Part shown: positions 1 to 21,508 of the stretch, in pieces | Layout: every line of letters starts with the position of its first letter | How positions within the stretch are numbered: the stretch's first letter is position 1 | Assembly: GCA_964623775.1 (NCBI GenBank) | Contig: CAZUVH010000003.1 | Location: 79,400 to 143,399 of the forward strand | Origin: an uncultured Candidatus Saccharibacteria bacterium | GTDB lineage: Bacteria > Patescibacteriota > Minisyncoccia > Phycocordibacterales > UBA2100 | DNA length: 64,000 nt | Reading direction: 5' to 3' | The notes under the pieces: generated by a model | Databases searched by the model: none | What the model was told of the DNA's origin: nothing | Seen by the model: the letters and a program-made list of their open reading frames with translations, nothing else | Position numbers and translations under genes: made by a program

Positions 1-631
1 GAAAGCCGCGCTTTCGTTCAGGAACTATCAGCTCTCATGCGAGGCGTTCTCGCGCGGCGAGATCCAGATGGTCGAGTCCAACGGCGGCCTCATGCGTTGC
101 GGCTGGGTCCCGCTCCGGTATCACCGGCGCACGCCGCTTCTGGTGAAATACGCCAGATGGCAGTCGTGCATCACGCACATGCACCCGCTCTCGCAGGCGG
201 CATGTATTGCGTACTCAGTGCTCGTATCGCAGGTTCTCGACGGACTCCCGGTACCGGTGGCATGGGAAGCGACGAAGGAAGTCCTTCGTAAACCCGTCTA
301 TGCCAAGATCCCCGGGCTCGAGACGATCCTGAGTGTGAAGACCGAGAGACCGACGGACGCTGAGATCTGGCCGAACACCGGCGCCGCCGTACTTTCCTTC
401 CGAGTCGCGCTTTGGGCATCGCTCACAGCTACGGATTTTCGGGATGGAATTACAAAGTGCACCGTCGTCGGCGGCGACACTGATACCTACGCGGCCATCG
501 CGGGGGGAATTCTCGGAGCGCGTTTTGGCGTGCAGGGAATCCCTGAAGACTGGCTGAACGGGCTGCAGGGTCGCCAGGTTGTCGAGAGACTCGTTCGAAA
601 GGTCTACAAGATCACTCATCCTCTCTCCTAA
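1..631 (+). CDS. ADP-ribosylglycohydrolase family protein (C-terminal part; 5' end lies outside window)
   Basis: Frame continues open from the window edge. C-terminal motif TVVGGDTDTYAAIAGGILGARFGVQGIPEDW is typical of the DraG/ADP-ribosylglycohydrolase family. Confidence 0.7.
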   Translation, partial: KAALSFRNYQLSCEAFSRGEIQMVESNGGLMRCGWVPLRYHRRTPLLVKYARWQSCITHMHPLSQAACIAYSVLVSQVLDGLPVPVAWEATKEVLRKPVYAKIPGLETILSVKTERPTDAEIWPNTGAAVLSFRVALWASLTATDFRDGITKCTVVGGDTDTYAAIAGGILGARFGVQGIPEDWLNGLQGRQVVERLVRKVYKITHPLS

Positions 632-717
632 AAGTTGAGCTGCGGCCGCGTATCGCGCGCCGCAGCCAACATCTTTTCCATAAAGCGCCCAAAGGTTGGA
701 CGCTTTTAGAAAAGTCC

Positions 718-733
718 TGCCTGCCGGCAGGCA
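718..733. promoter_or_regulatory. perfect 16-bp palindrome TGCCTGCCGGCAGGCA about 38 bp upstream of nadE start
   Basis: Read directly. Exact reverse-complement symmetry. Function unknown; could be an operator or a hairpin. Confidence 0.3.
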
Positions 734-770
734 TGGTCTTTGATATATGAAGAGAATACAGGAGAAACAC

Positions 771-2648
771 ATGCCCAAGTCCAAACTCGACTTCAAAATG
801 GCTGTCGGACAGATCGACACGACCGATGAAATAGAAGCTCGTCTCTCGAAGATGGTCGCATGCATTGACCGGGCTCGTAAGGGCGGAGCCAAGATGATCG
901 TTTTTCCGGAGATGGCAACTGCAAAAAAGTATCTGTGGGGCGACGATTGGGAATACGACTCGTTTATTCGCGAGATTACCGATGCGAACGAAAAAATTCG
1001 CGAAGCGTCAAAAGGGATTATTTGTATTTGGGGCTCGGTCCGTGCGGACTGGGATCGCATTGGCGAGGATGGCAGAGTGCGTAAGTACAATGCCGTACTC
1101 ATCGCGCAGGATGGCCATTGGGTCACCAACGGCCGTTTGAACGGTTGGATGCCCAAGACGAATCTGCCCGAGTACCGATTCTTCGACGATAAACGGCACT
1201 TCTATCCGGCGGCGAAGCTTGCTGCTGAATTGGAAGAGACACTCTTCTCGTTCCTCCGTCCGTTCCCCGTCACGATCGATGGTGAAAAGCTCTCGATCGG
1301 TCTCACGGTCTGTGAAGACATCTGGGAAGACGAATACGACGTCAAGCCGGCTCAGTGGTACGGGAAGAAAGGCGTCGACCTGCTCATCTGCGTATCTCAG
1401 TCGCCGTGGACCGTCGACAAATGGAAGGCTCGCGACAAGATGCTCCAGAGGCGCGCGAAAGACGTGATGTGCCCGATCCTTTATGTGAATTCGGTCGGCT
1501 TGCAGAACAATGCTAAGAATCTCGTCTGGTTCGACGGCGGCTCATGCTTCATGGGCGCAGATGGAAAAATGAAGTGGACGGCACCAAGCAATCGTGAAGA
1601 TCTCTCGATCTTCTTCCCATCAGCCGTCATCCAGAAGCCCAATGTGCTCCGGCACGTGGAAGGTATCAAGGAAAAATACGACGCGACGATTGCAGCGATG
1701 ATCGAATTCTACAAAGGCTACAAGCGGGTGATCATCGGCCTCTCCGGCGGCATCGACTCGGCGGTAGCGCTCGCAATGCACGTGAAGGCGCTCGGCGCTG
1801 AGCGCGTGCTCGCGGTCAATATGCCCACGAAGTTCAACTCATGGACGACGAGGTCGCTCGCTGAAAAGTGCGCGAAAAATTTCGGCGTCGAGTACAGAGT
1901 CGTCTCGGTACAAGAGAAGTTCGAAGCTTCGCTGCGACAAGTGGCAGAAGCGGGCTATTCGAATCCGAGCGATTTCGATTGTCAAAACGAACAGGCACGG
2001 CTTCGGGGCAGTACGCTCGCATTTATTGCGGCCAACGAGGCCACAAAGCTCGGCGGTCGCACGGGATTTACCTGCAACGGCAATAAGACTGAGGTCGCGC
2101 TCAACTACTTCACACTCTACGGCGACGGCGCGGGATGCTCAGCATTCCTCGCTGGCTATTGGAAAGGTGAAGTGTACGAGCTTGCTCATCACATCAACGG
2201 ACTCGCTGGACGAGATATGATTCCGCGAGGAATTATCGACATCGTGCCGTCGGCTGAACTCTCCGCGACGCAGAACGTGGACGAAGGCAAAGGTGACCCG
2301 ATCTTCTATCCGTTTCACGACAAGCTTCTCAAAGCGTTTCTTGTGCCACGATGGGATCCGGAAGTCATTATCCGACTCGCGATCCAGGGTACGCTTGAGG
2401 AAAAGCTCGGATGTGCGTCGGGTACTATCAAGAAGTATTTCCCGTCGCGTCAGCATCTCATTGTGAGTATTGAGTGGGCATGGCGCGAGTTCGCATACGC
2501 TGGTAAGCGGCATATGCTGCCGCCTGCATTCGTTACGGATCGTCGAGAGTTCGGATTTGATTACCGTCAGACGATCGACAGCGCGCACTTTACAAAACGG
2601 TACCAAGATCTTCTCTTCCAGTATTTGTTCCAACAAGTACTGGCGTAG
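771..2648 (+). CDS. nadE: glutamine-dependent NAD+ synthetase (N-terminal nitrilase/CN-hydrolase domain fused to NAD synthetase domain)
   Basis: SGGIDS P-loop (GLSGGIDSAVALAMH) in the C-terminal half. N-terminal CN-hydrolase-like region. AGGAG sits 7 nt before the ATG at 771; the in-frame ATG at 747 is an alternative start. Confidence 0.9.
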   Translation: MPKSKLDFKMAVGQIDTTDEIEARLSKMVACIDRARKGGAKMIVFPEMATAKKYLWGDDWEYDSFIREITDANEKIREASKGIICIWGSVRADWDRIGEDGRVRKYNAVLIAQDGHWVTNGRLNGWMPKTNLPEYRFFDDKRHFYPAAKLAAELEETLFSFLRPFPVTIDGEKLSIGLTVCEDIWEDEYDVKPAQWYGKKGVDLLICVSQSPWTVDKWKARDKMLQRRAKDVMCPILYVNSVGLQNNAKNLVWFDGGSCFMGADGKMKWTAPSNREDLSIFFPSAVIQKPNVLRHVEGIKEKYDATIAAMIEFYKGYKRVIIGLSGGIDSAVALAMHVKALGAERVLAVNMPTKFNSWTTRSLAEKCAKNFGVEYRVVSVQEKFEASLRQVAEAGYSNPSDFDCQNEQARLRGSTLAFIAANEATKLGGRTGFTCNGNKTEVALNYFTLYGDGAGCSAFLAGYWKGEVYELAHHINGLAGRDMIPRGIIDIVPSAELSATQNVDEGKGDPIFYPFHDKLLKAFLVPRWDPEVIIRLAIQGTLEEKLGCASGTIKKYFPSRQHLIVSIEWAWREFAYAGKRHMLPPAFVTDRREFGFDYRQTIDSAHFTKRYQDLLFQYLFQQVLA

Positions 2649-2665
2649 TTCTCTTCAATCTTTGC

Positions 2666-2691
2666 GGAGTGGTGTATTCTCACACCACTCC
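2666..2691. promoter_or_regulatory. inverted repeat GGAGTGGTGT-ATTCTC-ACACCACTCC between nadE and pncB
   Basis: 10-bp arms with no following T-run. The core GTGTAT..ACAC loosely resembles the TAGTGTA..TACACTA sites. Could be an operator variant or an RNA hairpin. Confidence 0.3.
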
Positions 2692-2759
2692 GCATCTACA
2701 TAAGGCATCTAATACATTGGGTGTCTTTAAAGAATTGTTCTTTGAGAGGAGAAGAAAAA

Positions 2760-4126
2760 TGACCGACTTCGTAGGACGCGTATTGCGACCCGAGCGACCG
2801 GATTGGATCGTCAGATCCCTGCTCGACGTCGACTTCTATAAATTCACGATGGGATATTTTATCTGGAAATTCCATCGTGGCGTTAATGTGAAATTCCGGC
2901 TCATCAATCGCAACACCGCGCTTCCGCTCGCAAAACTGGTCGATGAGAACGAGTTGCGTCATCAGCTCGATCATGTACGGACGCTCAAGTTCGGACTGAC
3001 CAATCTTTCATACTTGAGAGGTATGAGAGTCTATGGCGACGTGATGTTCTCTGAAGATTACTATGCATTTCTTGAGAATATGCGCATGACGCCGTACGTG
3101 CTCGAGAGGGTTGGCGATCAATACGAGCTCACATTCGAGGGCCCATGGGAAGTCGTCACATTTTGGGAGACGATAGCGCTTGCGATCGTTTGCGAGCTCT
3201 TGTACCGCAAGCTCATGAGCACGATGACCAAGGCGGAGCTCTCCGCGCTCTATGGTGCAGCGTTTGATCACCTTTATGAGAAACTCGCGACGCTCAAGCT
3301 CCGGTCCGGCATCAGATTTGCCGATTTCAGCCAAAGGCGACGTCACAGCTTCCTTTGGCAGCAGTCCGCGATCGAAATGGCGCAGGAAGTCATGGAGTCT
3401 CAATTCACGGGTACAAGCAATACGTGGATGGCATTCAACCGGGACTTGGTGCCTATCGGTACTAACGCACACGAGCTGCCGATGGTCATGACTGCACTCG
3501 CACCGACGGATCGCGCAAAGAAAACGGCTCAATATCAAGTATTGCGAGAGTGGGGGAAGCTCTTCCCGCACAACGCATTGCGTATCGTGCTCCCCGATAC
3601 ATACGGCAGTGCGCAGTTCTGGCGCGATATGCCGGTAGATCTAGCACACGAGGTCGCGCATACATGGCGCGGTGAGCGTGAGGATTCGGGCGATCCCGTG
3701 AAAGGCGCTCGGGCGTACGTACATTGGCTTATGTCAAAAGGTGTGAGTCATAAAGACATCAAAGCCAACAAGATCGTGATTCCATCCGATGGCCTCGACG
3801 TTGATTCAATGTATCGAATCGATCATGAACTTGACGGTCTTATTGGGCATCCGTTCGGTTGGGGTACCAACTTCGCCAACGGATTCGCAGGATGTCATCC
3901 GCGCGGAGCCGACAGGGCGATTGTGGACGGAGTGGGACTCGACCTGACGTACGATCAGCTCTTCCGCGGCCACTCGATCGTGGTGAAGGTGGAGAGCGCC
4001 AACGGCTACGGAGCTGTGAAGCTTTCTAACAACATCAAGAAAGCGACTGGTCGGCCGGAAGACATCGCTCGCTACATCAAGATCTTCGGCAGCGAAGGTC
4101 AGGTGTCGCAAGACGTATCGGTCTGA
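2760..4126 (+). CDS. pncB: nicotinate phosphoribosyltransferase
   Basis: N-terminal LLDVDFYKFTM matches the PncB LLDTD.YK.TM signature. GAGGAG RBS before the ATG at 2760. About 455 aa. Confidence 0.85.
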
Positions 4127-4140
4127 TCTTTCTTCAAAAC

Positions 4141-4181
4141 AAAAGCCCCTGGCGAATTTTCGCCAGGGGCATTCTCTTTTT
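4141..4181. terminator. bidirectional rho-independent terminator between pncB and nadM
   Basis: GCCCCTGGCG-AATTTT-CGCCAGGGGC stem flanked by an A-run on one side and a T-run on the other. Confidence 0.7.
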
Positions 4182-4183
4182 CA

Positions 4184-5107
4184 TTACTTACGCTGATTGT
4201 CCCATCGCTCGATCAGGCGCTTGACGAGCGGCTGATGCCACGGGACGAACATCGATTCCAATTCGTCTCGCTCGAACCACCGTGCTCCTTTGGCGTCGTC
4301 GCCGGGAGTGAGGGCACCATCACGATGTTTTGTCACGAAAAGGGAAGAGTAGATCTTGTCCTTTGACTTGCGGTAACGCGGATCGTCGATACGGATTCTC
4401 TTGCCGAGCTGCGTGTAGTCGTCGCTCGTGACGATATCCGGCAATTCTTCACTGCGTTCGCGCCGCGCCGCGTCTTCGTCGTTCTCGTCCTTTTCCGCGT
4501 CGACGAAACCGCCCGGTAGCGAATAAAGACCATCAAACCAACGCTTGCTTATGCCCACGACGCGCTGGCTGAGATCATTCACAATCGCGATGTCTGCCGC
4601 AGAATATGCGACCGCCGGCCGTGTCTGCTCGTGATGAATGATAGCTTCACGTGCTGTCATGTTGGCGGAATGCATGATCGATTTACGCAGATCGGTGCCG
4701 CTAACGTCCGAGACTGGTTCGATGTACTGGACAGCGTATTTCCCAGACTCTTTGTAGGCATCTAGAAAGCTCTCGCGAGAGCCGATCATCGTGACCTGCC
4801 GACTCTCGCCGTATTTTGAGCCCACGAGCTCATCGAGCCAATTGCTCCAGCGGTTGTGTGAGAACGGATGATCGCGAAGTCGCTCGATCTCGATATTCAT
4901 ATCCGGAAATCTCTCTTCCACCATCAGTCTCCGCTCTTGGAAGGTGAGGGGATCGCGGTCGGTCCGTAGTCCTCCATGATCGCCAAGCACGATCATGAGT
5001 TCGTCGCACTGCTCTTGCGCACTGCGCACGAGATGTAGGTGGCCTGGATGGAGGTCCGGGACTTGGAATCTGGCGACGATTACGCCGAGCTTTGGACGGA
5101 CAGTCAT
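4184..5107 (-). CDS. nadM: bifunctional NMN adenylyltransferase / Nudix ADP-ribose pyrophosphatase
   Basis: N-terminal cytidylyltransferase H-x-G-H motif (HPGH). C-terminal Nudix box with GG, E and REExEE-like residues. GAGGAGAAG RBS before the ATG at 5107. Start trimmed from the ORF-track start at 5185. Confidence 0.85.
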   Translation of the reverse strand: MTVRPKLGVIVARFQVPDLHPGHLHLVRSAQEQCDELMIVLGDHGGLRTDRDPLTFQERRLMVEERFPDMNIEIERLRDHPFSHNRWSNWLDELVGSKYGESRQVTMIGSRESFLDAYKESGKYAVQYIEPVSDVSGTDLRKSIMHSANMTAREAIIHHEQTRPAVAYSAADIAIVNDLSQRVVGISKRWFDGLYSLPGGFVDAEKDENDEDAARRERSEELPDIVTSDDYTQLGKRIRIDDPRYRKSKDKIYSSLFVTKHRDGALTPGDDAKGARWFERDELESMFVPWHQPLVKRLIERWDNQRK

Positions 5108-5194
5108 GACACTTCTCCTCTGTATTCGTAAAGATCTTTCTGCGGGCTGCATAATGTCACATTTCGTTTTTTTCTCAACGCACACTGCTTCTAA

Positions 5195-5213
5195 TAGTGT
5201 AGTATATACACTA
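5195..5213. promoter_or_regulatory. 19-bp palindrome TAGTGTA-GTATA-TACACTA, candidate NrtR operator upstream of nadM
   Basis: Perfect 7-bp inverted arms. Shares the TAGTGTA/TACACTA arms with the site at 7041. Lies about 88 bp upstream of the nadM start in the nadM/membrane-protein divergent region. Confidence 0.55.
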
Positions 5214-5441
5214 AGTATAGCAAGTCAACCCCGTCAGAAATAGCCCGCCCCGCAGACCCTTCAGGCGCGCCAGCGCGGGCGCGATTTCTAACGCGGTCAA
5301 ACAAAAAGACCAGGGAGTTGCTATTCGTCGGGCTTGATCACGTAACAATTTTATAGGGTGTCAATATCGACAATTTCTTTTTTTCTCATTATAGTCTCGC
5401 CTGGACTAAAGAGTTGAAACTGATCGAAAGGAGATCAAATC

Positions 5442-6236
5442 GTGGAAACATTGTTTGCTGGCGGAATTCTCGGCTTTTTTGCCGGCCTTGTCCTCTTCCT
5501 CGGGTGGTGGGCGTGGCCGCTACTGCTCCTGATGTGCGCTTTCGGAGTCTGCTTTAGCGTGGGCTTTGGCGTGTTCCCGCAGCGCAAGATTATGGCGACC
5601 ATCTTCCTCGTGCCATCAATGCTGCTTTTCTACCATCTCGTCGGCTGGGGATTGGTCGAGTTCTTCCTCAATCACTGGCGGACTTTGCTCTGGGTTATCG
5701 GCGGCCATCTCTTGATCGGCGGCGCATGGTGCATATTCGGGCGCTGGAATTTGAAGCATATGCGATTCAGCGGCAAAGCGAAGAAGGCCTTCGAGGATTT
5801 CGTAAAATCGTGGAAGAGCAAGATTTGCGAAGCGGACGATCCGAATCACTGGACGTCTGAACTTTCGCGCCTCGGGTACGCACCACCCGCCGGCGAGGGC
5901 TCGGGAAAAGAGCGATATTCCCGTGTCTCGGAAGCTGCAAAAACCAATGCAAACGATAAGCGGACAGCAGCGATTGCATTGCTCGCCAACAATGAGCTCC
6001 CGAAGGAGCTGGAAGCTCAGTGGGATGAGAATGAGTACTCTCACATGCCTCGCGCTTCTGAGCACAAGCTGGAGATTGCGTACTGGATCTTCGCTTGGCC
6101 TATCGACATTCCCGTCTGGATCGTCACTGATCTGGCCTGGGACTTTATCGAGGGTGTGATCAGATGGTTTGGCGGTGTGTTCTCGTGGGTTGCCAGCTGG
6201 CACTACAGGGATATGGATCCTCGCTACATCAAGTAA
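5442..6236 (+). CDS. hypothetical integral membrane protein
   Basis: GTG start preceded by AAGGAG. Several hydrophobic helices. No recognisable family. Confidence 0.5.
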   Translation: METLFAGGILGFFAGLVLFLGWWAWPLLLLMCAFGVCFSVGFGVFPQRKIMATIFLVPSMLLFYHLVGWGLVEFFLNHWRTLLWVIGGHLLIGGAWCIFGRWNLKHMRFSGKAKKAFEDFVKSWKSKICEADDPNHWTSELSRLGYAPPAGEGSGKERYSRVSEAAKTNANDKRTAAIALLANNELPKELEAQWDENEYSHMPRASEHKLEIAYWIFAWPIDIPVWIVTDLAWDFIEGVIRWFGGVFSWVASWHYRDMDPRYIK

Positions 6237-6245
6237 GTTCTACAA

Positions 6246-6279
6246 AGACCTCCGCTTTCGCGGAGGTCTTTTCTTTTTA
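6246..6279. terminator. bidirectional terminator
   Basis: AGACCTCCGC-TTTC-GCGGAGGTCT followed by TTTTCTTTTT. Confidence 0.65.
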
Positions 6280-6282
6280 TAT

Positions 6283-6969
6283 TTAGAGCACCTCTATTTC
6301 AGAAACTTTGTTTGAGGCGAAGCTGTAGAGCTGCGCCGGGCGGAAGCGGCCGCCACTTTTCTTGTGGGGGAGCTTTTTCAAAATCTTGAGCTTGAGAATT
6401 TTCTTGCGGAAATTGCGTTTATCGAGGTCGGTAGAGGTAAGGCACTCATACGCTTTTTCGAGATCAGTGAGCGTGAATTCGTGTGGCATGAGCTTATTGA
6501 TGAGTGTCGTGTAGTGCACGCGCGATCGCAGACGCTGAAGTGCCAAGGCGAGGATCTCGTCGTGATCGTACGCGAGGTTCTTTGCAGATTTTACCGGTAC
6601 CCACTTTGCACCATGCGAATCGCTCTGCTCTTTTTCGTCGAGCTTTTCCCACGGCACGAGCGCGAGGTAGGCGACAGCAACGACGCGTCCGCGGGGATCG
6701 CGTTCGATATGACTAAACGTATAGAGTTGTTCGATATAGATTTTCTTCGCGTCGATCCCGCTTTTTTCCTCGAGATGTCGCACGGCTGCCTGCTCGGCAG
6801 TCTCGTGGGGGAGGAGGAGCCCGCCCGGCAATCCAGGGACATTTTTAAAATGGGGTGGGCGATCGACGTTGATGAGGCGGACGTGCAGTACGCCTTCCTT
6901 GATCGTAAAGAGGGCCGTGTCTGCGGCCAATACTGCAAAGCGCAGATGCGGACTCGGGTCTTTTGCCAT
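6283..6969 (-). CDS. nrtR: NrtR-type regulator (Nudix-related transcriptional regulator of NAD metabolism)
   Basis: N-terminal Nudix-like domain plus a basic C-terminal region with winged-helix character. It sits among its classical targets: nadM, pncB, nadE, pnuC and nadR. Confidence 0.8.
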   Translation of the reverse strand: MAKDPSPHLRFAVLAADTALFTIKEGVLHVRLINVDRPPHFKNVPGLPGGLLLPHETAEQAAVRHLEEKSGIDAKKIYIEQLYTFSHIERDPRGRVVAVAYLALVPWEKLDEKEQSDSHGAKWVPVKSAKNLAYDHDEILALALQRLRSRVHYTTLINKLMPHEFTLTDLEKAYECLTSTDLDKRNFRKKILKLKILKKLPHKKSGGRFRPAQLYSFASNKVSEIEVL

Positions 6970-7040
6970 AGATGATTAATGGTAGCACTTTTGCAGTAAT
7001 TGTCAATAGTACACTTATTCACACAGTACTTGCATTTATT

Positions 7041-7066
7041 TAGTGTATGAAATACACTAAGTGTAT
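7041..7066. promoter_or_regulatory. two overlapping palindromes sharing AGTGTAT/ATACACT half-sites; candidate NrtR operator at pnuC
   Basis: TAGTGTAT-GAA-ATACACTA (7041-7059) and ATACACT-A-AGTGTAT (7052-7066) were read directly. The array overlaps the annotated pnuC ATG and the nrtR/pnuC divergent promoter region. Confidence 0.55.
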
Positions 7067-7772
7067 GAAACACATTATCTCGCGGCTCGCAGGTAGCTGG
7101 GAAGCCCACAAAGAAGGGCTCCTCGTAGCTGGTGCGATGTTCGCGGTGACCGTCGTGTATGAGACGATAACCGCACATTTTGTAGCGGATTACTCGCTTA
7201 ATATGTATGAATTCGTCGGGACGTGGTCGGGGCTCGTATGTGTATGGCTTTCACGCACACGCAATATATTGTGCTGGCCCTGGGGGATCGTGAGCTGTAT
7301 TTCGCTTGGATTCTTTTTCGCACAGATCGGTCTGCCAGGGCAACAGTGGCTCAACTGGGTGTACTTTACGGCGGTGCAATTGTGGGCGTGGCCGTACTGG
7401 GCATTTGGAGGCGAGCACTACGATGAGCTGCCGGTCACGAGGCTCTCATGGCTCGAAAGATTTCTCACTCTCGCGATGATTGCCGCCGGCACGGCTGTCG
7501 TATTCGCGCTCATCGGATACTTCTCGCCGGGATCGTTCTATCCGGTCCTCGATTCGCTCGTGGTCGCCTCGAGTGTCGTTGCACAATTCCTGCTCGGCCG
7601 CAAAAAAATCGAAAGCTGGATTCTGTGGCTCGGGCCCGTCAACATGCTCTCCATTTTCCTCTTTTTCTCGGCCGGTGCGTACACCCTGACGGCGCTTTAC
7701 ATCGCATTCTTTATACACGCGGCATTTGCGATCCGATCATGGCAGGCGGTTGAGGTAAAAACCGCATCATAG
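7047..7772 (+). CDS. pnuC: nicotinamide riboside transporter PnuC
   Basis: About 7 TM helices with a Trp-rich pattern (WPWG, WAWPYW) typical of PnuC. NAD-regulon context. Alternative start at 7065 (MKHII). Confidence 0.75.
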   Translation: MKYTKCMKHIISRLAGSWEAHKEGLLVAGAMFAVTVVYETITAHFVADYSLNMYEFVGTWSGLVCVWLSRTRNILCWPWGIVSCISLGFFFAQIGLPGQQWLNWVYFTAVQLWAWPYWAFGGEHYDELPVTRLSWLERFLTLAMIAAGTAVVFALIGYFSPGSFYPVLDSLVVASSVVAQFLLGRKKIESWILWLGPVNMLSIFLFFSAGAYTLTALYIAFFIHAAFAIRSWQAVEVKTAS

Positions 7773-7774
7773 GT

Positions 7775-8758
7775 ATGTACGGGCGCGGACTCGTCGTCGG
7801 CAAATTCTACCCACCGCATCGCGGGCACAAATATTTGATCGATGCTGCGCTCTCGCAATGCGAAAGTGTCACCGTCCTCGTTCTTTCGGAAAGTAATCAG
7901 TCGATTTCAGGAGACCTGCGATCTGCGTGGCTCAAGACGATCCACCCGACGGCTGACATACGACATATCGCGGACACTCCGATCGGCGAAGATGATTCTG
8001 CGGGGTGGGCAAAATTTACGATCGATTACCTCGGGTATGTTCCCGACGCGGTCTTCACATCTGAAGAGTATGGGCATGCATATGCACTCTTCATGGGCAC
8101 GAAGCATGTACTCGTAGACAAGGATCGTCTCGTCGTGCCGATTTCCGGTACGAAAGTGCGCTCGAATCCTCTACGACATTTTGAATTTCTCGAGCCATGT
8201 GTACGGAAGTATTTTGTGAAGCGCATTGCCATCGTGGGTGCCGAATCCACAGGCACGACGACGCTCGCAAAAGATCTGGCAGCTCACTACAAGACTGTCT
8301 GGGCCCCTGAATTCGGTCGGATGTATTCCGAAGGGAAACTATTTGCCGACAAAAATGCCGCATGGCGCAGTGAAGAGTTTGAGATCATCGCCCGTGCGCA
8401 AAATGATCTTGAAGACGCGCTCGCCGAGTCGTGCAACGGGCTCCTCATCTGTGATACCGACGCCTTTGCGACCGGTATTTGGCATGAGCGCTACATGGGG
8501 CGACGTTCTCCACGGGTGGAGCAGATCGCTGAGGCACATGTGCACGATCTCTACATCGTGACCGGTGATGAGATTCCGTTTGAGCAAGATGGCACACGCG
8601 ATGGCGAGCATATCCGGCATTGGATGCACGAAAGATTTCTCGAACGGCTAAAAGAAGATCATAAACCCCACATTATTGTTCGCGGCAATCGCGAGGTGCG
8701 CCTACAAAAGGCGATCGAGGCGATTGCGACCCGCTCTATGCACGCGACCGCTTCATGA
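7775..8758 (+). CDS. nadR: NadR-like bifunctional NMN adenylyltransferase / ribosylnicotinamide kinase (no N-terminal HTH)
   Basis: GKFYPPHRGH nucleotidyltransferase motif at the N-terminus. Walker A (GAESTGTTT) in the C-terminal kinase domain. Confidence 0.8.
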   Translation: MYGRGLVVGKFYPPHRGHKYLIDAALSQCESVTVLVLSESNQSISGDLRSAWLKTIHPTADIRHIADTPIGEDDSAGWAKFTIDYLGYVPDAVFTSEEYGHAYALFMGTKHVLVDKDRLVVPISGTKVRSNPLRHFEFLEPCVRKYFVKRIAIVGAESTGTTTLAKDLAAHYKTVWAPEFGRMYSEGKLFADKNAAWRSEEFEIIARAQNDLEDALAESCNGLLICDTDAFATGIWHERYMGRRSPRVEQIAEAHVHDLYIVTGDEIPFEQDGTRDGEHIRHWMHERFLERLKEDHKPHIIVRGNREVRLQKAIEAIATRSMHATAS

Positions 8759-8969
8759 GAAGTACACTTGACTTATGTACAATACTCATGTTGTATTGAG
8801 AGGTTGTATTGAACTCTCCGTGACTTTCAACCAACGTGCCTAGTCGCCCCCTTACTCGAAGAGCCCTGTTTCATGATCTAGCTATCGAAATAGCTATGTC
8901 AGCACACAAAACTGCATCACACAAACGACACGCAAGAGCGAGAGCATTTTCTACTTACCGAGGCAGGTA

Positions 8970-9929
8970 ATGTTGACGTTATTTGATGTGGGGGCCCGTG
9001 CCCGTGCCCGTGCCCGTGCCCGTGCCCGTGATCCCATTTTCTTGGTCAAGTGGGTGGGCACAGCTCTGCGCGCGGCGAGCATGATGACACTCCTCATTGT
9101 CGTCTATGTAGTAGGCGCACCATTTTTTGCTGTCGCAGTACTCGCGCTCTTTCTGCTCGTTCTCACGCATATGACAGTAAGGCCTATATACGAAAGTATT
9201 AACCAGACCCTCGAATCTCATAAACTTTTTGTATCAAACGTGGCTCATGAGCTTCGCGGTCCGATGTCTGTGATGCAGCTCGACGCGGAAGCTGCGCTCC
9301 ACAATATCTCGCTTGCGCAACTCTCCGATGTTAAATCTAAAGAATTAATCGGAGCAATCAATTCTGACCTGAAAGGTCTCCATCAGATGGCCAACATCAT
9401 CAAGAATCTCTCAATCCTGACCTCCCAACAGTACGGAAGTGAACAACTTGAATTCACAGAAGTAAATCTCAGTGTGCTCCTCTCACGCCTGTGCGCATTC
9501 GTTGAGAAGGAATATGCATACGACAAATCCATTCATATCAAAGCAGAGAGCAAAACTCCGGTGTACATACTGGGTAATGAATCAGCGCTCGAGCAAATGA
9601 TCATGAATCTTTTGAAGAATGCCGTGCACTACAGCGCGGATGGCACAGGCATTGTCGCAACCACTCACCAGCATGAGAGAGGGGTGTCGCTCTCGATCAG
9701 GGATCACGGATTTGGAATATCTGAATACGATTTACCGCATATACTCGATCCCTTCTATAGAGCGCGGCATTCGCGTGCCGCGACAAATACGGAGAGCGGT
9801 AGCGGGCTTGGACTAGCGATCGTCGCTGCGCTTGCCAAGCAGCACAAGGCGACCGTGACCATCGCGAGCGTGCTCAAGAAGGGTACGACAGTAACGCTTA
9901 ATTTCCCCCTAATGGCGCAAACCGCATGA
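8970..9929 (+). CDS. membrane-anchored sensor histidine kinase
   Basis: H-box HELRGPM, N-box NLLKNAVHYS and G-box GSGLGLAIV are present. Hydrophobic N-terminal segment. True start is uncertain: 8970 or the MM codons near 9076. Confidence 0.8.
   Translation: MLTLFDVGARARARARARARDPIFLVKWVGTALRAASMMTLLIVVYVVGAPFFAVAVLALFLLVLTHMTVRPIYESINQTLESHKLFVSNVAHELRGPMSVMQLDAEAALHNISLAQLSDVKSKELIGAINSDLKGLHQMANIIKNLSILTSQQYGSEQLEFTEVNLSVLLSRLCAFVEKEYAYDKSIHIKAESKTPVYILGNESALEQMIMNLLKNAVHYSADGTGIVATTHQHERGVSLSIRDHGFGISEYDLPHILDPFYRARHSRAATNTESGSGLGLAIVAALAKQHKATVTIASVLKKGTTVTLNFPLMAQTA
8994..9030 (+). repeat. hexanucleotide tandem repeat (CCCGTG)x6 encoding (Ala-Arg)6
   Basis: Read directly. Six perfect units are in frame with the HK ORF if the 8970 start is used; otherwise they fall in its 5' leader. 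Confidence 0.9.
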
Positions 9930-13389: not shown

Positions 13390-14841
13390 TCAGCTGACGC
13401 GGAAATTTTTGAACTGCCAGGGATCTGACTGATCGGTGTCTTCGGGGAAAAGGCCGTCGCGACCTTTGAGCGGATTCCAGTCGGTGTACTCACCATACAT
13501 GCGGCCCATGTAGGGCGTGATGAGTTCCATCATGCGTTCGTGATCGAGATCCTCGGCCTCGACGATACCTGCGCGCGGATTTTCGATCGCCCATACCATT
13601 GCACCCATGATTCCAGCGGTCACTTGGAGGCCCGTGGCATTTTGATACGGCGCAAGCTTGCGCGCCTCTTCGATCGTGAGCTGCGATCCATACCAATACG
13701 CATTTTTCTCGTGACCCATGAGGAGGACACCGAGCTCATCCATACCTGAGACGATCTCATCGAGCAGGATCTTCTGCTCACCCTGCAACTGTCGGTCTTT
13801 GCCAAAGGCCTCGTCGAGTGAGAGCACGGCCGCATCGCATGGTCGGTATGCGTAGTGCACGGTCGGACGATAGAGAAGGTGATCGTTTTCTTTGTATGTC
13901 AGATATTCCGAGATCGAGATAGATTCGTTGTGCGTGACGAGGCGGCCATGGAAATTTTTCTGAGCAGGAGTCCAGGTGCGTACTTTGATGTCGGCGCCCG
14001 GCTTCTCAATATATATAGGTGAGTCGCGATGCTCGAAGTGACGTTTTGCATCTGTGGGGAAGTGACGCTCATGCGTGCCCCAGCCAAGCTCCGAAGGCTG
14101 TGTCACGCCCTCGGAGTGAAATCCATAAACAGACCACGTGTTTTCAAATCGGCCGATTTTCTTCGGCGTGCCGGCGACCTGTGTATCGTATTCGGCGATG
14201 TGGATGGTCTTGATACTGAGGTCACGTGCAAGCCTGGCCCACTCCCATTGATTGGAGGGCTTGCCGCGATCCCAACCCATGTCGCGCACGAGGTTCATGA
14301 TCGCGGCCTTGAGGAAATGAGAAACGATCCCCGGATTTGCGCCGTGCGCGACCACTGCGGTTGGTCCTTGATTCCCGTTTTTTAGCTGAAGAGCGCTCTC
14401 GCGTAATCCGAAATTTGAGCGCTGGGTGAAGGTGAGGGTGGGGTCTTCGTAGCCGCCCATCCAGGGCTCGATGCATGTATCGAGGTAGAGCGTGCCACGA
14501 TCCTGGCAGAATTTGATGAGTGCGATCGAGGAGACATCGACGGAGACATTGAGGAGAAATCCGCCTTCTCCCAAGAGTGGCTCCAATACAGTGCGGAAAT
14601 TCTGCGGGCCGAGCGGCTCCACCACATAATTCACACCCTCATTTCGCGCGATCGCTTCACCGCGATTGTCGCCGGTGACGATCGTGATATCGCGCGGAGA
14701 GATATCGAGATGACGTAAGATGAGCGGCAAGACACCCTGACCGATAGAGCCGAAGCCCACGATGACGAGTTTGCCGGGGACCTTTGCGTGGACCTTGCCC
14801 TTTGAGGTCACATGATGCACGTGAATTTTTATTTCCGCCAT
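13390..14841 (-). CDS. hss: homospermidine synthase
   Basis: About 480 aa. N-terminal Rossmann GFGSIGQG. Overall resemblance to bacterial HSS, e.g. the IVGFGSIG..LPLI start. Confidence 0.8.
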   Translation of the reverse strand: MAEIKIHVHHVTSKGKVHAKVPGKLVIVGFGSIGQGVLPLILRHLDISPRDITIVTGDNRGEAIARNEGVNYVVEPLGPQNFRTVLEPLLGEGGFLLNVSVDVSSIALIKFCQDRGTLYLDTCIEPWMGGYEDPTLTFTQRSNFGLRESALQLKNGNQGPTAVVAHGANPGIVSHFLKAAIMNLVRDMGWDRGKPSNQWEWARLARDLSIKTIHIAEYDTQVAGTPKKIGRFENTWSVYGFHSEGVTQPSELGWGTHERHFPTDAKRHFEHRDSPIYIEKPGADIKVRTWTPAQKNFHGRLVTHNESISISEYLTYKENDHLLYRPTVHYAYRPCDAAVLSLDEAFGKDRQLQGEQKILLDEIVSGMDELGVLLMGHEKNAYWYGSQLTIEEARKLAPYQNATGLQVTAGIMGAMVWAIENPRAGIVEAEDLDHERMMELITPYMGRMYGEYTDWNPLKGRDGLFPEDTDQSDPWQFKNFRVS

Positions 14842-14946
14842 TTATATATAAGAGTAGCAGATGATCTATATTTTTTTTTAAAAAAGCGTCATAGAGTGGA
14901 TATCCGCGATTGACATTACGGTGCGCGGATTCGATGATTAATAGAA

Positions 14947-16188
14947 ATGGCATATACGAAACCGAATGTTCTTATCGCGGGTGCTTCCGGCGGCGTAGCC
15001 AACGCGCTTCTCCATCACTTCACTGTCGATCGTGATCTTTACGGTACGGTTGTCCTTTTGGATCGCAATAAGAAAGTTCTCGAGGACATGTACATCGATC
15101 ACGGGCGTTTATCGTACGAATTTGTAGAGATGGATCTCAAATTCCCTGAGGGCGAGGCAGAGTACATCAGTCTTCTCAAAGAAAAGAACATTCAGATCGT
15201 GGTAGACATCACCGACATGGACACCATGGGCTTCCTTGAGGCGACCGACAAGGCGGGTGTTACGTATTTCAATACGGGAATGAACGACGACAATGTCTAC
15301 TGCGCCGAGCTTGTGATCGGTCTTTCCGAGAAGCGGGAGCAGTACACCCATGCGCCGCATATCGTGTCGTGCGGCATGAATCCGGGTGTTGTAAACAACT
15401 GGGTAGAGCACGGCATCAAAAAATTCGGTCTTCCGGAGGAGATTGTCCATTTCGAATACGACACTTCGAAAATCTCAAAAGAGTGGCATCCGATGATGAC
15501 GTGGTCTATCCACGAATTCCTCGTCGAGAGTGTCTGGGATTCATCGGGCTACATGCTCGGGCGTGGCCGAGATAAAGTGCGCGAGCTCTTGCCCAACGCG
15601 CTCATGAATCGCGAGAATATGCGAGACATCCTCGAGCCGATCATGCACCTACAATCGTATCCGGAGGGCATGATCGTCATCCACGACGAGAACGTCAGCC
15701 TCTCCCAAAAATACGACATCCCCTCGAAATTCTTGTACGCGATCCACCCGAAGACGACGGAGAGACTCATTCGGCTTTACACGGAGAAAGGAACCGTCGC
15801 TGTCGAAGATCTTGAATTGGGGGACAATACCAATGAAGTCTTGGACGGCGCCGACAGCATCGGTGTCATGCTCCGGTATAAGGACAGGCGAGTGTACTAT
15901 TTCAACACGATCTCAAGCGTCGCGGTCATCGGGACGAATGCCACGTATACACAGGTGGTGATCGGTATCATGTCGGGGCTCCACGCGCTTCTCAATGATC
16001 CGCTGAAGCCGGGAGTGCATTTCCCGGAGGAGCTTTACCACACGAGTTATCGTCACTTTATGTTCGACAACATGCGCGTGCAGGAATTCGTATTCGACAA
16101 GCAAGAGAGTGGCCACCTCAAGCTCACGTCATTCGATCCCATGATAAAGACAAGTCGAAAGGGATATGTACACGATTACATCATCTAA
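14947..16188 (+). CDS. saccharopine dehydrogenase-family NAD(P)-binding protein (HSS/carboxyspermidine-dehydrogenase-like paralog)
   Basis: N-terminal VLIAGASGGVANAL Rossmann. Size and architecture fit the Sacchrp_dh family. Divergent from hss. Confidence 0.7.
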   Translation: MAYTKPNVLIAGASGGVANALLHHFTVDRDLYGTVVLLDRNKKVLEDMYIDHGRLSYEFVEMDLKFPEGEAEYISLLKEKNIQIVVDITDMDTMGFLEATDKAGVTYFNTGMNDDNVYCAELVIGLSEKREQYTHAPHIVSCGMNPGVVNNWVEHGIKKFGLPEEIVHFEYDTSKISKEWHPMMTWSIHEFLVESVWDSSGYMLGRGRDKVRELLPNALMNRENMRDILEPIMHLQSYPEGMIVIHDENVSLSQKYDIPSKFLYAIHPKTTERLIRLYTEKGTVAVEDLELGDNTNEVLDGADSIGVMLRYKDRRVYYFNTISSVAVIGTNATYTQVVIGIMSGLHALLNDPLKPGVHFPEELYHTSYRHFMFDNMRVQEFVFDKQESGHLKLTSFDPMIKTSRKGYVHDYII

Positions 16189-17400: not shown

Positions 17401-18393
17401 ATGTTCAAGGCATTCTTTGCTTCGCCTAAATGGGCCATATGGGCATACGGCGGAGGAGTCTTTCTTCTCGCCTCGCTCTACACGCAGGTGCAGATAACAG
17501 TGATGATCAATGAGTGGTATAAGGATTTCTACAACATCCTCCAAAAACCACTTGATCATTCGATCGATGAATTCTGGGCGAGCATCTGGTATTTCTTTGT
17601 GCTGGCGATGCCATATGTGGCACTTGCCACGCTAACCGGATACTTCACGCGTCTGTATGCATTTCGTTGGCGGCAGGCGATCACATTCGATTACCTCCCG
17701 CGTTGGCGGAATGTAAAACATGAGATAGAGGGCGCGAGCCAACGTATCCAAGAAGATGCAGCGCGCTTCGGGAAGATCGTCGAATCGCTCGGACTACAGG
17801 TCGTGCGTGCGATCATGACACTCATCGCGTTTGTCCCAGTTCTCAGTACGCTCTCGCGGAACATACGCATCGAGTGGGTCGAGAACAACATCGGACACAT
17901 CGATTCGTCACTTGTATGGGTCGCTCTTGCCGTCTCGCTCGGCAGTATGGGTGTATCGTGGATCGTCGGCGGGAAGTTGCCCGGTCTGGAATACAACAAT
18001 CAGCGTGTCGAGGCGGCATTCCGTAAAGAGCTTGTATATGGTGAGGACGACAAGGAAAATCGTGCCTCAATGGCAGTACTTGTGGAGCTCTTTACCGGTA
18101 TCAAGATCAATTATCATCGACTGTTCCTTCATTACGGCTATTTCGACATGTGGGTCAATCTGTACGACCAATGCATGACGATCGTTCCGTATGTTATTGC
18201 GGCGCCAAATCTCTTTACTGGTGCGATCTCCCTCGGCGTCCTGATGCAGGTGTCCAACGCGTTTTCCCGGGTGCACAATAGCTTTACGATCTTCACTCAC
18301 AATTGGACTACGATCACTGAGCTGCGCAGCATCTTCAAGCGGCTAAACGAGTTCGAAAGAAATCTCGACCGGCATACGGCGCGAGCAAACTGA
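17401..18393 (+). CDS. sbmA: SbmA/BacA-family peptide transporter
   Basis: Multiple blocks match E. coli SbmA: WY..FYN.LQ, FRWR, HEIEGASQRIQEDAARF, AIMTLIAFVPVL, KLPGLEYNNQRVEAAFRKELVYGEDD. Confidence 0.85.
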   Translation: MFKAFFASPKWAIWAYGGGVFLLASLYTQVQITVMINEWYKDFYNILQKPLDHSIDEFWASIWYFFVLAMPYVALATLTGYFTRLYAFRWRQAITFDYLPRWRNVKHEIEGASQRIQEDAARFGKIVESLGLQVVRAIMTLIAFVPVLSTLSRNIRIEWVENNIGHIDSSLVWVALAVSLGSMGVSWIVGGKLPGLEYNNQRVEAAFRKELVYGEDDKENRASMAVLVELFTGIKINYHRLFLHYGYFDMWVNLYDQCMTIVPYVIAAPNLFTGAISLGVLMQVSNAFSRVHNSFTIFTHNWTTITELRSIFKRLNEFERNLDRHTARAN

Positions 18394-21507: not shown

Positions 21508-21508
21508 G

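What the first reader, a model, noticed from the sequence alone, without database searches (positions are those of the whole stretch)
1..8758. Compact NAD salvage/recycling regulon under an NrtR regulator
Six NAD-related genes lie within 9 kb with an NrtR-type regulator in the middle. They are an ADP-ribosylglycohydrolase, glutamine-dependent NadE, PncB, a NadM-Nudix fusion, PnuC and a NadR-like NMNAT/NR kinase lacking the HTH domain. Both nucleoside (PnuC to NadR) and base (PncB) salvage routes are present. So is an ADP-ribose-recycling Nudix. No nicotinamidase (PncA) was seen.
Basis: partly seen in the sequence, partly recalled or inferred. Interest (0 to 1): 0.5.

Follow-up and report, generated by a model that had tools for sequence, protein, structure and literature searches.

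The report
NrtR-controlled NAD salvage cluster, CPR bacterium
This is a real but fairly ordinary gene cluster for recycling the cofactor NAD, switched by a known type of regulator (NrtR), in an uncultured ultra-small (CPR) bacterium; the one unexpected extra is a conserved folded RNA element in front of two of its genes.

Summary
All six NAD genes and the NrtR regulator are there (Pfam/NCBIfam). A seventh gene, an orphan membrane protein, sits among them. The genome is a Parcubacteria-type CPR bacterium.

The regulon reading is supported. I found a 21-bp palindrome, TTAGTGTA-N5-TACACTAA, with the GT-N7-AC core typical of NrtR operators. It sits on the nadM-Nudix promoter and in the nrtR/pnuC divergent region. 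A third copy lies 387 bp left of the window, in front of the ADP-ribosylglycohydrolase gene, on a contig identical to the window. Across 330 kb of related CPR loci it gives 24 hits, against about 0.05 expected.

The same layout (nrtR<>pnuC-nadR, nadM, pncB) was published for Hahella in 2008, so this is a new member of a known kind.

Two things were not expected:
- nadE and pncB are each preceded by a conserved structured RNA element. There are 14 copies in 6 genomes, with compensatory changes and no Rfam match. Its conserved GUUCUUU tail is predicted to pair with the ribosome-binding site.
- The NadR-like protein has Thr in place of the Walker-A lysine (GAESTGTTT). About 40% of family representatives share this, so its nicotinamide-riboside kinase activity is unproven.

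No pncA, nadV, nadK or nadD was detected in the 64 kb.

The parts
1..631 (+). 3' two-thirds of an ADP-ribosylglycohydrolase (ARH, DraG-like) gene. The full gene is 327 aa and starts 352 nt left of the window.
   Evidence: PF03747, E = 7e-35. Full gene, promoter and NrtR operator seen on L019, which is 100% identical to window 1-2657.
639..745 (+). nadE leader copy of the conserved RNA element. Hairpin A is 639-666, hairpin B0/B is 675-718, and the third stem carries a CCTGCC/GGCAGG insertion up to about 741.
   Evidence: Covariance-model hit at 675-718, E = 2e-4 over 399 kb; this copy was not in the training set. Fold -58.8 kcal/mol, z = -5.4.
771..2648 (+). Glutamine-dependent NAD synthetase NadE (625 aa). 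The catalytic strings FPE, VCED and SGGIDS are visible in the sequence.
   Evidence: CN_hydrolase plus NAD_synthase; TIGR00552 above its cut-off. An exact 625-aa product is on record.
2649..2758 (+). pncB leader copy of the RNA element. Hairpin A is 2663-2694, B0/B plus tail is 2694-2747, the anti-SD tail GUUCUUU is 2737-2743, and the SD sequence GAGAGGAG is 2744-2751.
   Evidence: Fold -47.9 kcal/mol, z = -8.4. Model hit of 54.6 bits. Covariation.
2759..4126 (+). Nicotinate phosphoribosyltransferase PncB (455 aa).
   Evidence: NAPRTase_N plus NAPRTase; PRK05321 scores 334 bits. A 455-aa product identical to it is on record.
4145..4170 (.). Bidirectional intrinsic terminator between the convergent pncB and nadM-Nudix genes.
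   Evidence: 11-bp stem with 9 GC pairs and T-runs on both strands.
4184..5107 (-). Bifunctional NadM-Nudix (307 aa). N-terminal NMN adenylyltransferase with HPGH and SGTDLR motifs. C-terminal Nudix domain with RERSEE, but non-canonical box spacing.
   Evidence: The 307-aa gene call is on L017.
5194..5214 (.). NrtR operator ATAGTGTAGTATATACACTAA. It overlaps the -10 hexamer of the nadM-Nudix promoter (-35 TTGACT at 5228-5223, -10 TATACT at 5206-5201, minus strand).
5442..6236 (+). Orphan membrane protein (264 aa) with its own promoter-like site, ribosome-binding site and terminator (6244-6271). Function unknown. It sits in a variable slot of the cluster.
   Evidence: No Pfam or NCBIfam hit. 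Only itself found among 5.8 billion proteins. Relatives carry other genes in this slot.
6283..6969 (-). NrtR-family transcriptional regulator (228 aa).
   Evidence: NrtR_WHD 9e-21, NUDIX 2e-12, NF050029 5e-42. PDB matches 5bs6 and 3gz5. More than 100 CPR protein clusters share 63-86% identity with it.
6997..7017 (.). Degenerate operator (minus strand TAAGTGTACTATTGACAATTA) overlapping the -35 hexamer of the nrtR promoter (TTGACA-16-TACCAT, 7006-6979). Probable autoregulation.
   Evidence: The same variant sits upstream of nrtR in L012, L001, L016 and L002.
7040..7078 (.). Perfect NrtR operator TTAGTGTATGAAATACACTAA (7040-7060) and an abutting degenerate copy (7058-7078). Together they cover both candidate pnuC start codons.
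7047..7772 (+). Nicotinamide riboside transporter PnuC. The start codon is ATG 7047 or ATG 7065.
   Evidence: PF04973 4e-36; TIGR01528 above its cut-off.
7775..8758 (+). NadR-like protein without the HTH domain. NMN adenylyltransferase domain with HRGH and SGTKVR motifs, plus an AAA_28 kinase-like domain whose Walker A reads GAESTGTTT (Lys replaced by Thr). It starts 2 nt after pnuC ends.

Best explanation
**What it is.** The region is the NAD salvage and recycling locus of a Parcubacteria-type CPR bacterium. It runs as an NrtR regulon.

**Transcriptional control.** NrtR (6283-6969) binds as a dimer to 21-bp palindromes, TTAGTGTA-N5-TACACTAA. These lie on or just downstream of the promoters of three units:
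- ARH-nadE-pncB. Its operator lies 387-407 bp left of the window and faces a divergent prs gene.
- nadM-Nudix.
- The divergent pair nrtR and pnuC-nadR.

Binding represses all three units. By analogy with characterised NrtRs, ADP-ribose released when NAD is consumed lifts the repression.

**Inferred pathway.**
- PnuC imports nicotinamide riboside. The NadR-like and/or NadM enzymes convert it to NMN and then NAD.
- PncB uses PRPP from Prs to turn nicotinate into NaMN. NaMN is adenylylated and then amidated by glutamine-dependent NadE.
- ARH frees ADP-ribose from modified targets. The Nudix half of NadM splits it into AMP and ribose-5-phosphate, which feeds Prs.

**A second layer inside the left operon.** nadE and pncB are each preceded by a conserved structured RNA. 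It consists of a GC-rich hairpin, a long irregular hairpin with a conserved C.A mismatch or bulged A, and a GUUCUUU tail. The tail is predicted to pair with the Shine-Dalgarno sequence. This most likely tunes translation or read-through of each cistron.

**Shown:**
- Domain identities and catalytic motifs.
- Operator sequences and their positions.
- Conservation of the synteny.
- Covariation in the RNA element and its restriction to these leaders.

**Inferred:**
- Enzyme activities.
- Repression, and ADP-ribose as the effector.
- Co-transcription of ARH, nadE and pncB.
- What the RNA element senses, if anything.
For: **Gene identities.**

**Operators.**
- Two perfect 19-bp core matches lie in the 64-kb window, both in this cluster.
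- A third lies on L019, which is identical to the window over 2,657 bp.
- Across 330 kb of window plus related loci there are 24 sites with at most 2 mismatches. Markov simulations gave about 0.05 per run (1 hit in 20 runs).
- Nearly all of these sites are next to nrtR, nadM-Nudix, pncB, pnuC, NAD kinase or NAMPT genes.
- The motif matches the published NrtR rule of a 21-bp palindrome with a GT-N7-AC core, and sits at promoters as published (PMC2330246).
- The sites overlap the predicted -10 of nadM-Nudix and the -35 of nrtR.

**Regulator.** Its Nudix box, R-H-L-E-E-K, parallels the inactive box RQUxEK of M. smegmatis NrtR (PMC6800001).

**Synteny.**

**Co-transcription.** No promoter-like site was found upstream of nadE or pncB.

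**RNA element.**
- 92.7% of cells are paired, 6 pairs show changes on both sides, and 0 of 500 shuffles reach the observed score.
- RNAalifold predicts the same helices independently.
- The covariance model finds only ARH, nadE and pncB leaders in 399 kb. Two of those copies were not in its training set.
- The SD sequence is paired with the tail in the minimum-energy fold of 12 of 12 copies.
Against: - No experiment exists for this lineage.
- The best solved-structure match of the regulator is the arabinose-responsive AraR (5bs6, 4e-27), ahead of Shewanella NrtR (3gz5, 1e-20).
- The regulator scores 144 bits against a cut-off of 400 for the NCBIfam NrtR equivalog.
- nadE and pncB have no operator of their own, and hairpins lie between the cistrons.
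- The NadR-like kinase domain lacks the Walker-A lysine that is treated as essential in characterised NadRs (PMC7221760).
- The Nudix box of NadM-Nudix has extra residues between the G and the RE.
- No NaMN-specific adenylyltransferase (NadD) was seen in the window.
- The RNA element rests on 14 copies from 6 related genomes. Its two hairpins also look like intrinsic terminators.
Confidence: 0.8

Rival explanations
1. The intercistronic RNA elements are only tandem intrinsic terminators or mRNA-stability and processing hairpins. They set fixed expression ratios within the operon and respond to no signal.
For: In relatives, hairpin A is GC-rich and followed by AUUUUUAU. Hairpin B has an A-tract, a GC stem and a U-tract, like a bidirectional terminator. 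An ordinary terminator in this genome (6244-6271) uses a similar GCGGAGG stem.
Against: Terminators are rarely conserved in sequence across genomes whose proteins are only 40-75% identical. Here about 35 nt are conserved, including a C.A mismatch or bulged A, UAGARA and AGUUCUUU, with compensatory changes. The element occurs only before ARH, nadE and pncB, not at other gene junctions of the same operons or elsewhere in the 64 kb. In the window itself, the two A hairpins lack a proper T-run and were not called terminators. There is no room for a promoter downstream of them.
Confidence: 0.4
2. Only part of the cluster is under NrtR. nadE and pncB would be expressed constitutively or through another regulator, and their position next to the regulon would be simple co-localisation.
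For: No NrtR palindrome with up to 4 mismatches lies in 632-770 or 2649-2758. Hairpins separate the cistrons.
Against: No promoter-like site lies upstream of either gene. In L002 and L004, nadM-pncB-nadE form one co-directional string behind NrtR sites. In L026 and L027, an NrtR site heads the string that ends in ARH-nadE-pncB.
Confidence: 0.15
3. The NadR-like protein with GAESTGTTT is not a nicotinamide riboside kinase. Its second domain would be inactive or would do something else, so the PnuC route would need another kinase or would serve another substrate.
For: The Walker-A lysine is replaced by Thr here and in all four CPR orthologues. Solved NadRs all have GK[ST], and the lysine is described as essentially conserved (PMC7221760).
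Against: The Thr/Ser variant is itself conserved: 65 of the best 150 family representatives carry it. The rest of the domain is well conserved, including the Walker B DTD. The tight pnuC-nadR pairing is kept in these genomes.
Confidence: 0.3
4. The regulator is an NrtR-family protein that senses something other than ADP-ribose, as Bacteroides AraR senses arabinose.
For: Its best PDB match is AraR 5bs6. It is below the NCBIfam NrtR equivalog cut-off.
Against: Every conserved neighbour and every gene preceded by an operator is an NAD or ADP-ribose gene. Pfam scores NrtR_WHD at 74 bits against 39 for AraR_C. No sugar-utilisation genes are nearby.
Confidence: 0.08

Closest known systems
NrtR regulon of Hahella chejuensis, written nrtR<#>pnuC-nadR-#nadM-pncB (Rodionov et al. 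2008, PMC2330246, Table 1)
   Same: A divergent nrtR and pnuC-nadR pair sharing an operator. A separate operator before nadM. pncB in the same cluster. Three salvage routes under one Nudix-related repressor.
   Different: A different phylum (CPR rather than Gammaproteobacteria). Here pncB is paired with nadE and ARH in a convergent operon, prs is adjacent, an orphan membrane gene is inserted, and conserved RNA elements sit between the cistrons.
Synechocystis Slr1690 and Shewanella SO1979 NrtR, validated by gel shift with ADP-ribose as anti-repressor (PMC2330246)
   Same: The same two-domain regulator. A 21-bp palindrome with a GT-N7-AC core at promoters of nadM, nadE and prs-type genes.
   Different: The operator half-site sequence TTAGTGTA is specific to this lineage. 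Nothing has been tested experimentally here.
Streptomyces nrtR-draG locus and Streptococcus nadR-pnuC-nrtR operon (PMC2330246)
   Same: Linkage of nrtR to an ADP-ribosylglycohydrolase gene and to pnuC-nadR.
   Different: Here both linkages occur in one locus.
Mycobacterium smegmatis NrtR (PMC6800001)
   Same: A degenerate Nudix box with the same two substitutions (RE becomes R-Q/H, EE becomes E-K). That protein has no ADP-ribose hydrolase activity. It is also autoregulated.
   Different: A different operator (GTTTTCGA-N7-TCGAAAAC). It controls de novo nadABC rather than salvage.
Bacteroides thetaiotaomicron AraR (PDB 5bs6; PMC4666351)
   Same: The best solved-structure match, and the same fold family.
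   Different: AraR controls arabinose utilisation. Here the genomic context and operators are all NAD-related.
NAD+ riboswitches class I (nadA motif) and class II (pnuC motif); pyr-operon attenuators of Bacillus (these comparisons are from my own knowledge)
   Same: A cis-acting structured RNA directly upstream of NAD biosynthesis genes. Like the pyr attenuators, it is repeated before successive cistrons of one operon.
   Different: No Rfam family matches, even at E up to 1. The architecture differs: a terminator-like hairpin comes first, then a long irregular hairpin, then an anti-SD tail. No ligand or binding protein is known.

Membership tests
NrtR family of Nudix-related transcriptional regulators | N-terminal Nudix-like domain fused to a C-terminal NrtR-type winged helix | tested here: met
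   PF00293 2e-12 (residues 36-141) and PF21906 9e-21 (residues 159-217). PDB 3gz5 matches over residues 10-218.
NrtR family of Nudix-related transcriptional regulators | 21-bp palindromic operators with a GT-N7-AC core at promoters of NAD genes and of nrtR itself | tested here: met
   TTAGTGTA-N5-TACACTAA at 5194-5214, 7040-7060 and L019 8823-8843. 24 sites in related loci against about 0.05 expected. The rule is quoted from PMC2330246.
NrtR family of Nudix-related transcriptional regulators | ADP-ribose releases the protein from DNA | not testable with these tools
   Inferred only from characterised members (PMC2330246, PMC6800001).
NrtR family of Nudix-related transcriptional regulators | Score above the NCBIfam equivalog cut-off (NF050029) | tested here: not met
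   144 bits against a cut-off of 400. That model is narrow, whereas the Pfam family cut-offs are passed.
Bifunctional NadM-Nudix (NMN adenylyltransferase / ADP-ribose pyrophosphatase) | N-terminal nucleotidyltransferase with HxGH and SxTxxR motifs | tested here: met
   HPGH and SGTDLR are present. PRK05379 4e-17. PDB 2qjo 8e-8.
Bifunctional NadM-Nudix (NMN adenylyltransferase / ADP-ribose pyrophosphatase) | C-terminal Nudix domain with a canonical box, Gx5Ex7REUxEExGU | tested here: inconclusive
   The RExxEE core is kept (RERSEE), but there are extra residues between the G and the RE, and the final GU is replaced by PD. CPR orthologues share the altered spacing. A profile of orthologues matches both domains of 2qjt at 2e-21.
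NadR family (NMN adenylyltransferase plus ribosylnicotinamide kinase) | NMN adenylyltransferase domain with HxGH | tested here: met
   HRGH and SGTKVR are present. TIGR01526 5e-61, PDB 9x6f 2.5e-43.
NadR family (NMN adenylyltransferase plus ribosylnicotinamide kinase) | Kinase domain with Walker A GxxxxGK[ST] | tested here: not met
   It reads GAESTGTTT, with Thr at the lysine position. The same holds in 4 of 4 CPR orthologues and in 65 of 150 family representatives. The Walker B DTD is present.
NadR family (NMN adenylyltransferase plus ribosylnicotinamide kinase) | N-terminal HTH domain (enterobacterial type only) | tested here: not met
The match starts at position 66 of the 411-position PRK08099 model.
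PnuC nicotinamide riboside transporters | Passes the curated family model | tested here: met
   TIGR01528 scores 63.9 bits against a cut-off of 42.45. PF04973 4e-36.
Glutamine-dependent NAD synthetase | CN-hydrolase domain fused to an NAD-synthase ATP-pyrophosphatase domain | tested here: met
   PF00795 2e-14 and PF02540 1e-35. TIGR00552 scores 101 bits against a cut-off of 64. VCED and SGGIDS are visible in the sequence.
Known NAD-related riboswitch classes or any other Rfam family (for the RNA element) | Match to an Rfam covariance model | tested here: not met
   No hit at gathering thresholds in the window. No relevant hit at E up to 1 in 1-9000.

The most novel reading that the evidence does not exclude
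The conserved element in front of ARH, nadE and pncB is a previously undescribed, signal-responsive cis-regulatory RNA. It would be either a riboswitch for an NAD-pathway metabolite or the target of an RNA-binding regulator. It would switch between two states. In one, an extended hairpin (U-tract paired with UAGARA) leaves the GUUCUUU tail free to sequester the ribosome-binding site. In the other, UAGARA pairs with UUCU and frees that site. This would give CPR bacteria a second, post-transcriptional layer of NAD control on top of NrtR.
Probability: 0.3. Interest if true: 0.7.

Novelty: new member of a known kind. Interest (0 to 1): 0.42.

Why it matters
CPR/Patescibacteria are thought to depend on hosts for cofactors, so how they obtain NAD is central to their biology.

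- **A conserved regulon.** This locus shows that one lineage carries three entry routes for NAD precursors plus ADP-ribose recycling. All run under a highly conserved NrtR with a clear operator that is shared across the several CPR lineages sampled here. Few transcription factor regulons can be read this plainly from CPR metagenomes. I found no paper in the library that mentions NrtR together with CPR taxa.
- **The RNA element.** If it responds to a signal, it would be a new regulatory RNA class tied to NAD metabolism.
- **The Thr-type Walker A.** It marks a large, uncharacterised branch of the NadR family.

The regulon itself is textbook NrtR biology.

Tried and rejected
- **Phage origin.** Megablast of 1-8758 against 50,697 phage records found nothing, so I dropped this idea.
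- **Kynurenine-pathway link.** ORF 53945-55156 hit KYNU_C weakly. NCBIfam shows a generic class-V aminotransferase (30 bits against a cut-off of 246), so I rejected it.
- **pncA, nadV and nadK in the window.** Neither Pfam on all likely genes of 125 aa or more nor tblastn with CPR and model-organism queries found anything.
- **More operators in the window.** Two hits with 4 mismatches (27000 and 29856) lie inside or at the ends of unrelated genes. I treated them as chance.
- **Orphan membrane protein.** It has no homologue other than itself and no similarity to the genes that occupy the same slot in relatives.
- **A relocated lysine compensating for the Thr-type Walker A.** A column-by-column comparison of the Lys and Thr classes found none.
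- **More copies of the RNA element.**
  - A metagenome scan with NadE returned only relatives at about 30% identity, without the element.
  - A pattern scan of viral contigs found nothing.
- **A promoter inside the RNA element.** I considered a sigma-70 promoter with TATAAA as the -10. I rejected it because no -35 is conserved and because transcription starting there would break helix B, which covaries.
- **A DNA operator reading of hairpin B.** Its loop varies from 3 to about 40 nt, which a dimeric DNA-binding protein could not span.


Full report
**Observation.**
- The ADP-ribosylglycohydrolase (ARH) gene runs off the left end of the window (1-631; PF03747, 7e-35).
- nadE is 771-2648 (CN_hydrolase plus NAD_synthase).
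- pncB is 2759-4126.
- nadM-Nudix is 4184-5107 on the minus strand.
- nrtR is 6283-6969 on the minus strand (NrtR_WHD 9e-21, NUDIX 2e-12).
- pnuC is 7047 or 7065 to 7772.
- The NadR-like gene, 7775-8758, starts 2 nt after pnuC ends. Its product matches positions 66-400 of the 411-position NadR model, so it has no HTH domain.

Gene calls on identical public contigs fix the starts: NadE 625 aa, PncB 455 aa and NadM-Nudix 307 aa. It encodes a 264-aa membrane protein with its own promoter-like site, ribosome-binding site and terminator. It has no family hit and no homologue other than itself.

**Organism.**
The NrtR protein has more than 100 relatives at 63-86% identity. The few that carry names are Kaiserbacteria, Campbellbacteria, Pacebacteria, Liptonbacteria, Minisyncoccia and Paceibacterota. 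The nearest species-representative genome is a Kaiserbacteria MAG. There is no phage match, and the window holds no tRNA or Rfam family. The window therefore comes from an uncultured Parcubacteria-type CPR bacterium.

**The regulator and its operators.**
- Two perfect copies of TAGTGTA-N5-TACACTA occur in the 64 kb, and both lie in this cluster.
- Site 5194-5214 overlaps the -10 hexamer of a TTGACT-16-TATACT promoter that reads into nadM-Nudix.
- Site 7040-7060 lies between nrtR and pnuC. A degenerate copy abuts it at 7058-7078.
- Another degenerate copy, at 6997-7017, overlaps the -35 of the nrtR promoter. The same variant (AAGTGTAC-N3-TTGACAAT) sits upstream of nrtR in four other genomes.
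- A Logan contig, L019, is 100% identical to window 1-2657 and extends 9.2 kb further left. It carries the full ARH gene and a divergent PRPP synthetase gene.
- L019 also carries a third operator, TTAGTGTAATATGTACACTAG. It lies 27 nt downstream of a TTGACA-17-TATAGT promoter and 35 nt upstream of the ARH start.
- Across 330 kb of window plus related loci there are 24 sites with at most 2 mismatches. Markov simulations gave about 0.05 per run.
- These sites sit next to nrtR, nadM-Nudix, pncB, pnuC, NAD kinase and NAMPT genes.

This matches the published description of NrtR operators: 21-bp palindromes with a GT-N7-AC core that overlap promoters or lie between promoter and start codon (PMC2330246). 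The regulator's Nudix box, R-H-L-E-E-K, carries the same two substitutions as the catalytically dead box of M. smegmatis NrtR (PMC6800001).

**How it most likely works.**
NrtR represses three units: ARH-nadE-pncB, nadM-Nudix, and nrtR with pnuC-nadR. ADP-ribose, the product of NAD consumption, relieves the repression. That step is inferred from characterised family members.

The gene set gives two entry routes and a recycling loop:
- A nucleoside route: PnuC, then the NadR-like enzyme and/or NadM.
- A base route: PncB with PRPP from Prs, then adenylylation, then NadE.
- An ADP-ribose loop: ARH releases ADP-ribose, the Nudix half of NadM hydrolyses it, and the ribose-5-phosphate returns to Prs.

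Co-transcription of ARH, nadE and pncB is also inferred. No promoter-like site precedes nadE or pncB. In relatives, an NrtR site heads the whole co-directional string (L026 at 3809 and L027 at 71; L002 and L004).

No NadD, PncA, NadV or NadK was found in the window. NaMN adenylylation would therefore fall to NadM, to the NadR-like enzyme, or to a gene elsewhere in the genome.

**Comparison with what is known.**
The 2008 NrtR paper lists Hahella chejuensis as nrtR<#>pnuC-nadR-#nadM-pncB. It also describes nrtR-draG in Streptomyces, nadR-pnuC-nrtR in streptococci and prs-nadV in Shewanella. Every linkage seen here therefore has a precedent. What is new is the lineage and the operator sequence. 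I found no paper that combines NrtR, PnuC or PncB with CPR taxa.

Points against simple membership:
- The regulator's best solved-structure match is the arabinose sensor AraR.
- It falls below the narrow NCBIfam equivalog cut-off.

Context and Pfam both favour NrtR proper.

**Unexpected feature 1: an RNA element before nadE and pncB.**
The 110-nt spacer between nadE and pncB folds at -47.9 kcal/mol, with z = -8.4. The nadE leader folds at -58.8 kcal/mol, with z = -5.4.

The same element precedes several genes in relatives:
- nadE and pncB in L012.
- pncB in L001.
- ARH, nadE and pncB in each of L026, L027 and L029.

Its parts, in order, are:
- A GC-rich hairpin A, usually GCGGAG...CUCCGC.
- The linker AUUUUUAUAA.
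- Hairpin B, AARRCRCC...GGAYGYYUU, with a conserved C.A mismatch or bulged A and a tip that varies from 3 to about 40 nt.
- An extension of B in which the U-tract pairs with UAGARA.
- The tail AGUUCUUU.

Evidence that it is a structured, gene-specific RNA:
- On a 12-sequence alignment, 92.7% of cells pair, six pairs change on both sides, and no shuffle in 500 reaches the observed covariation.
- RNAalifold predicts the same helices independently, with 9 of 22 pairs compensatory.
- A covariance model searched over 399 kb finds only these leaders at E below 1e-3. That includes two copies that were not used to build it.
- No Rfam family matches.
- G.U pairs place the element on the sense strand.

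In all 12 copies folded, the minimum-energy structure pairs the GUUCUUU tail with the Shine-Dalgarno sequence. An alternative AGAA:UUCU helix that would free the Shine-Dalgarno sequence costs 3.5-9 kcal/mol more. Column 61 covaries with both possible partners.

I read the element as a cis-acting control of translation or read-through of each cistron. Whether it senses anything is open. The main rival is that it is a pair of terminator or stability hairpins. Its sequence conservation and its restriction to these genes argue against that, but the sample is small: 14 copies from 6 related genomes.

**Unexpected feature 2: the Walker A of the NadR-like protein.**
It reads GAESTGTTT. The solved NadRs have GK[ST], and the lysine is described as essentially conserved (PMC7221760).
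- All four CPR orthologues share the Thr.
- Among the best 150 representatives of the family, 81 have Lys, 59 Thr and 6 Ser.
- I found no relocated lysine.
- Named members of one Thr-type cluster come from Chloroflexota MAGs.

The variant is therefore under selection, but its kinase activity is untested.

**Verdict.**
The finding is real and correctly interpreted. As a regulon it is a new member of a well-known kind, so it is of modest interest. The RNA element and the Thr-type NadR branch are the parts worth following up.

Noticed in passing
window 20647-25306 (- strand): A cytochrome o-type quinol oxidase operon in a CPR genome: UbiA/CyoE-like prenyltransferase, COX4_pro, COX1 and a subunit II with a COX_ARM motif. 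Such genes have been reported in some Parcubacteria MAGs (PMC12577380).
   Followed up: partly
window 27992-36821: A copper-handling neighbourhood: a DUF7282/cupredoxin protein, a heavy-metal P-type ATPase (29207-31561), a DsbA-like thioredoxin (33493-34233) and a multicopper oxidase (35259-36821).
   Followed up: no
window 8994-9030: A perfect hexanucleotide repeat, (GCCCGT) x 6.2, inside the N-terminus of the histidine-kinase ORF 8970-9929, where it encodes (Ala-Arg)n. It could vary in length by slippage, or the true start codon may lie downstream.
   Followed up: no
L002 10799-12199; L004 10795-11619: In other Paceibacteria and Nomurabacteria, an NAD kinase gene sits between nrtR and nadM-Nudix and is preceded by an NrtR-type site. 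In L002 it is fused to a GNAT acetyltransferase domain.
   Followed up: partly
L008 16373-17203 (- strand): A 276-aa protein with nicotinamidase-like strings (LLVIDPQNDF, WPPHC, SSHCV) lies downstream of three NrtR-type sites. It has no Pfam hit at E up to 1e-3, so calling it PncA rests on motifs recalled from memory.
   Followed up: partly
L026 1-4797; L027 227-4636; L029 76-4564; L012 9310-13017; L008 12821-16376: A recurring module (a PP2C phosphatase, a kinase-like protein of about 579 aa and two unannotated proteins) sits in the same NrtR-headed operons as ARH-nadE-pncB. It is absent from this window. From memory it resembles vWA/PP2C/kinase triads. I did not test this.
   Followed up: no
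L012 3748-4662 and 4832-5791: Two tandem NadM-Nudix paralogues. The copy nearer to pncB, which lies about 100 bp downstream of a perfect operator (4716-4736), has its HxGH motif degenerated to KRGW.
   Followed up: no
protein P0127 and its cluster: A 434-aa Thr-type NadR-like protein whose cluster members are named ADP-ribosylation/crystallin J1 in Chloroflexota MAGs. This suggests a NadR-ARH fusion, which would echo the ARH linkage seen here.
   Followed up: no
L005 and L007: MAGs labelled 'uncultured Gammaproteobacteria' carry CPR-type nrtR loci (44-46% identity) with CPR-type operators next to nrtR, and in L007 pnuC-nadR. These may be mis-binned contigs or cases of gene transfer.
   Followed up: no
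window 56293-56790 (- strand); 17401-18393; 13390-16188: A HutZ/HugZ-like haem oxygenase, an SbmA/BacA-family transporter and two adjacent saccharopine-dehydrogenase-like genes. These are unusual metabolic content for a reduced genome.
   Followed up: no
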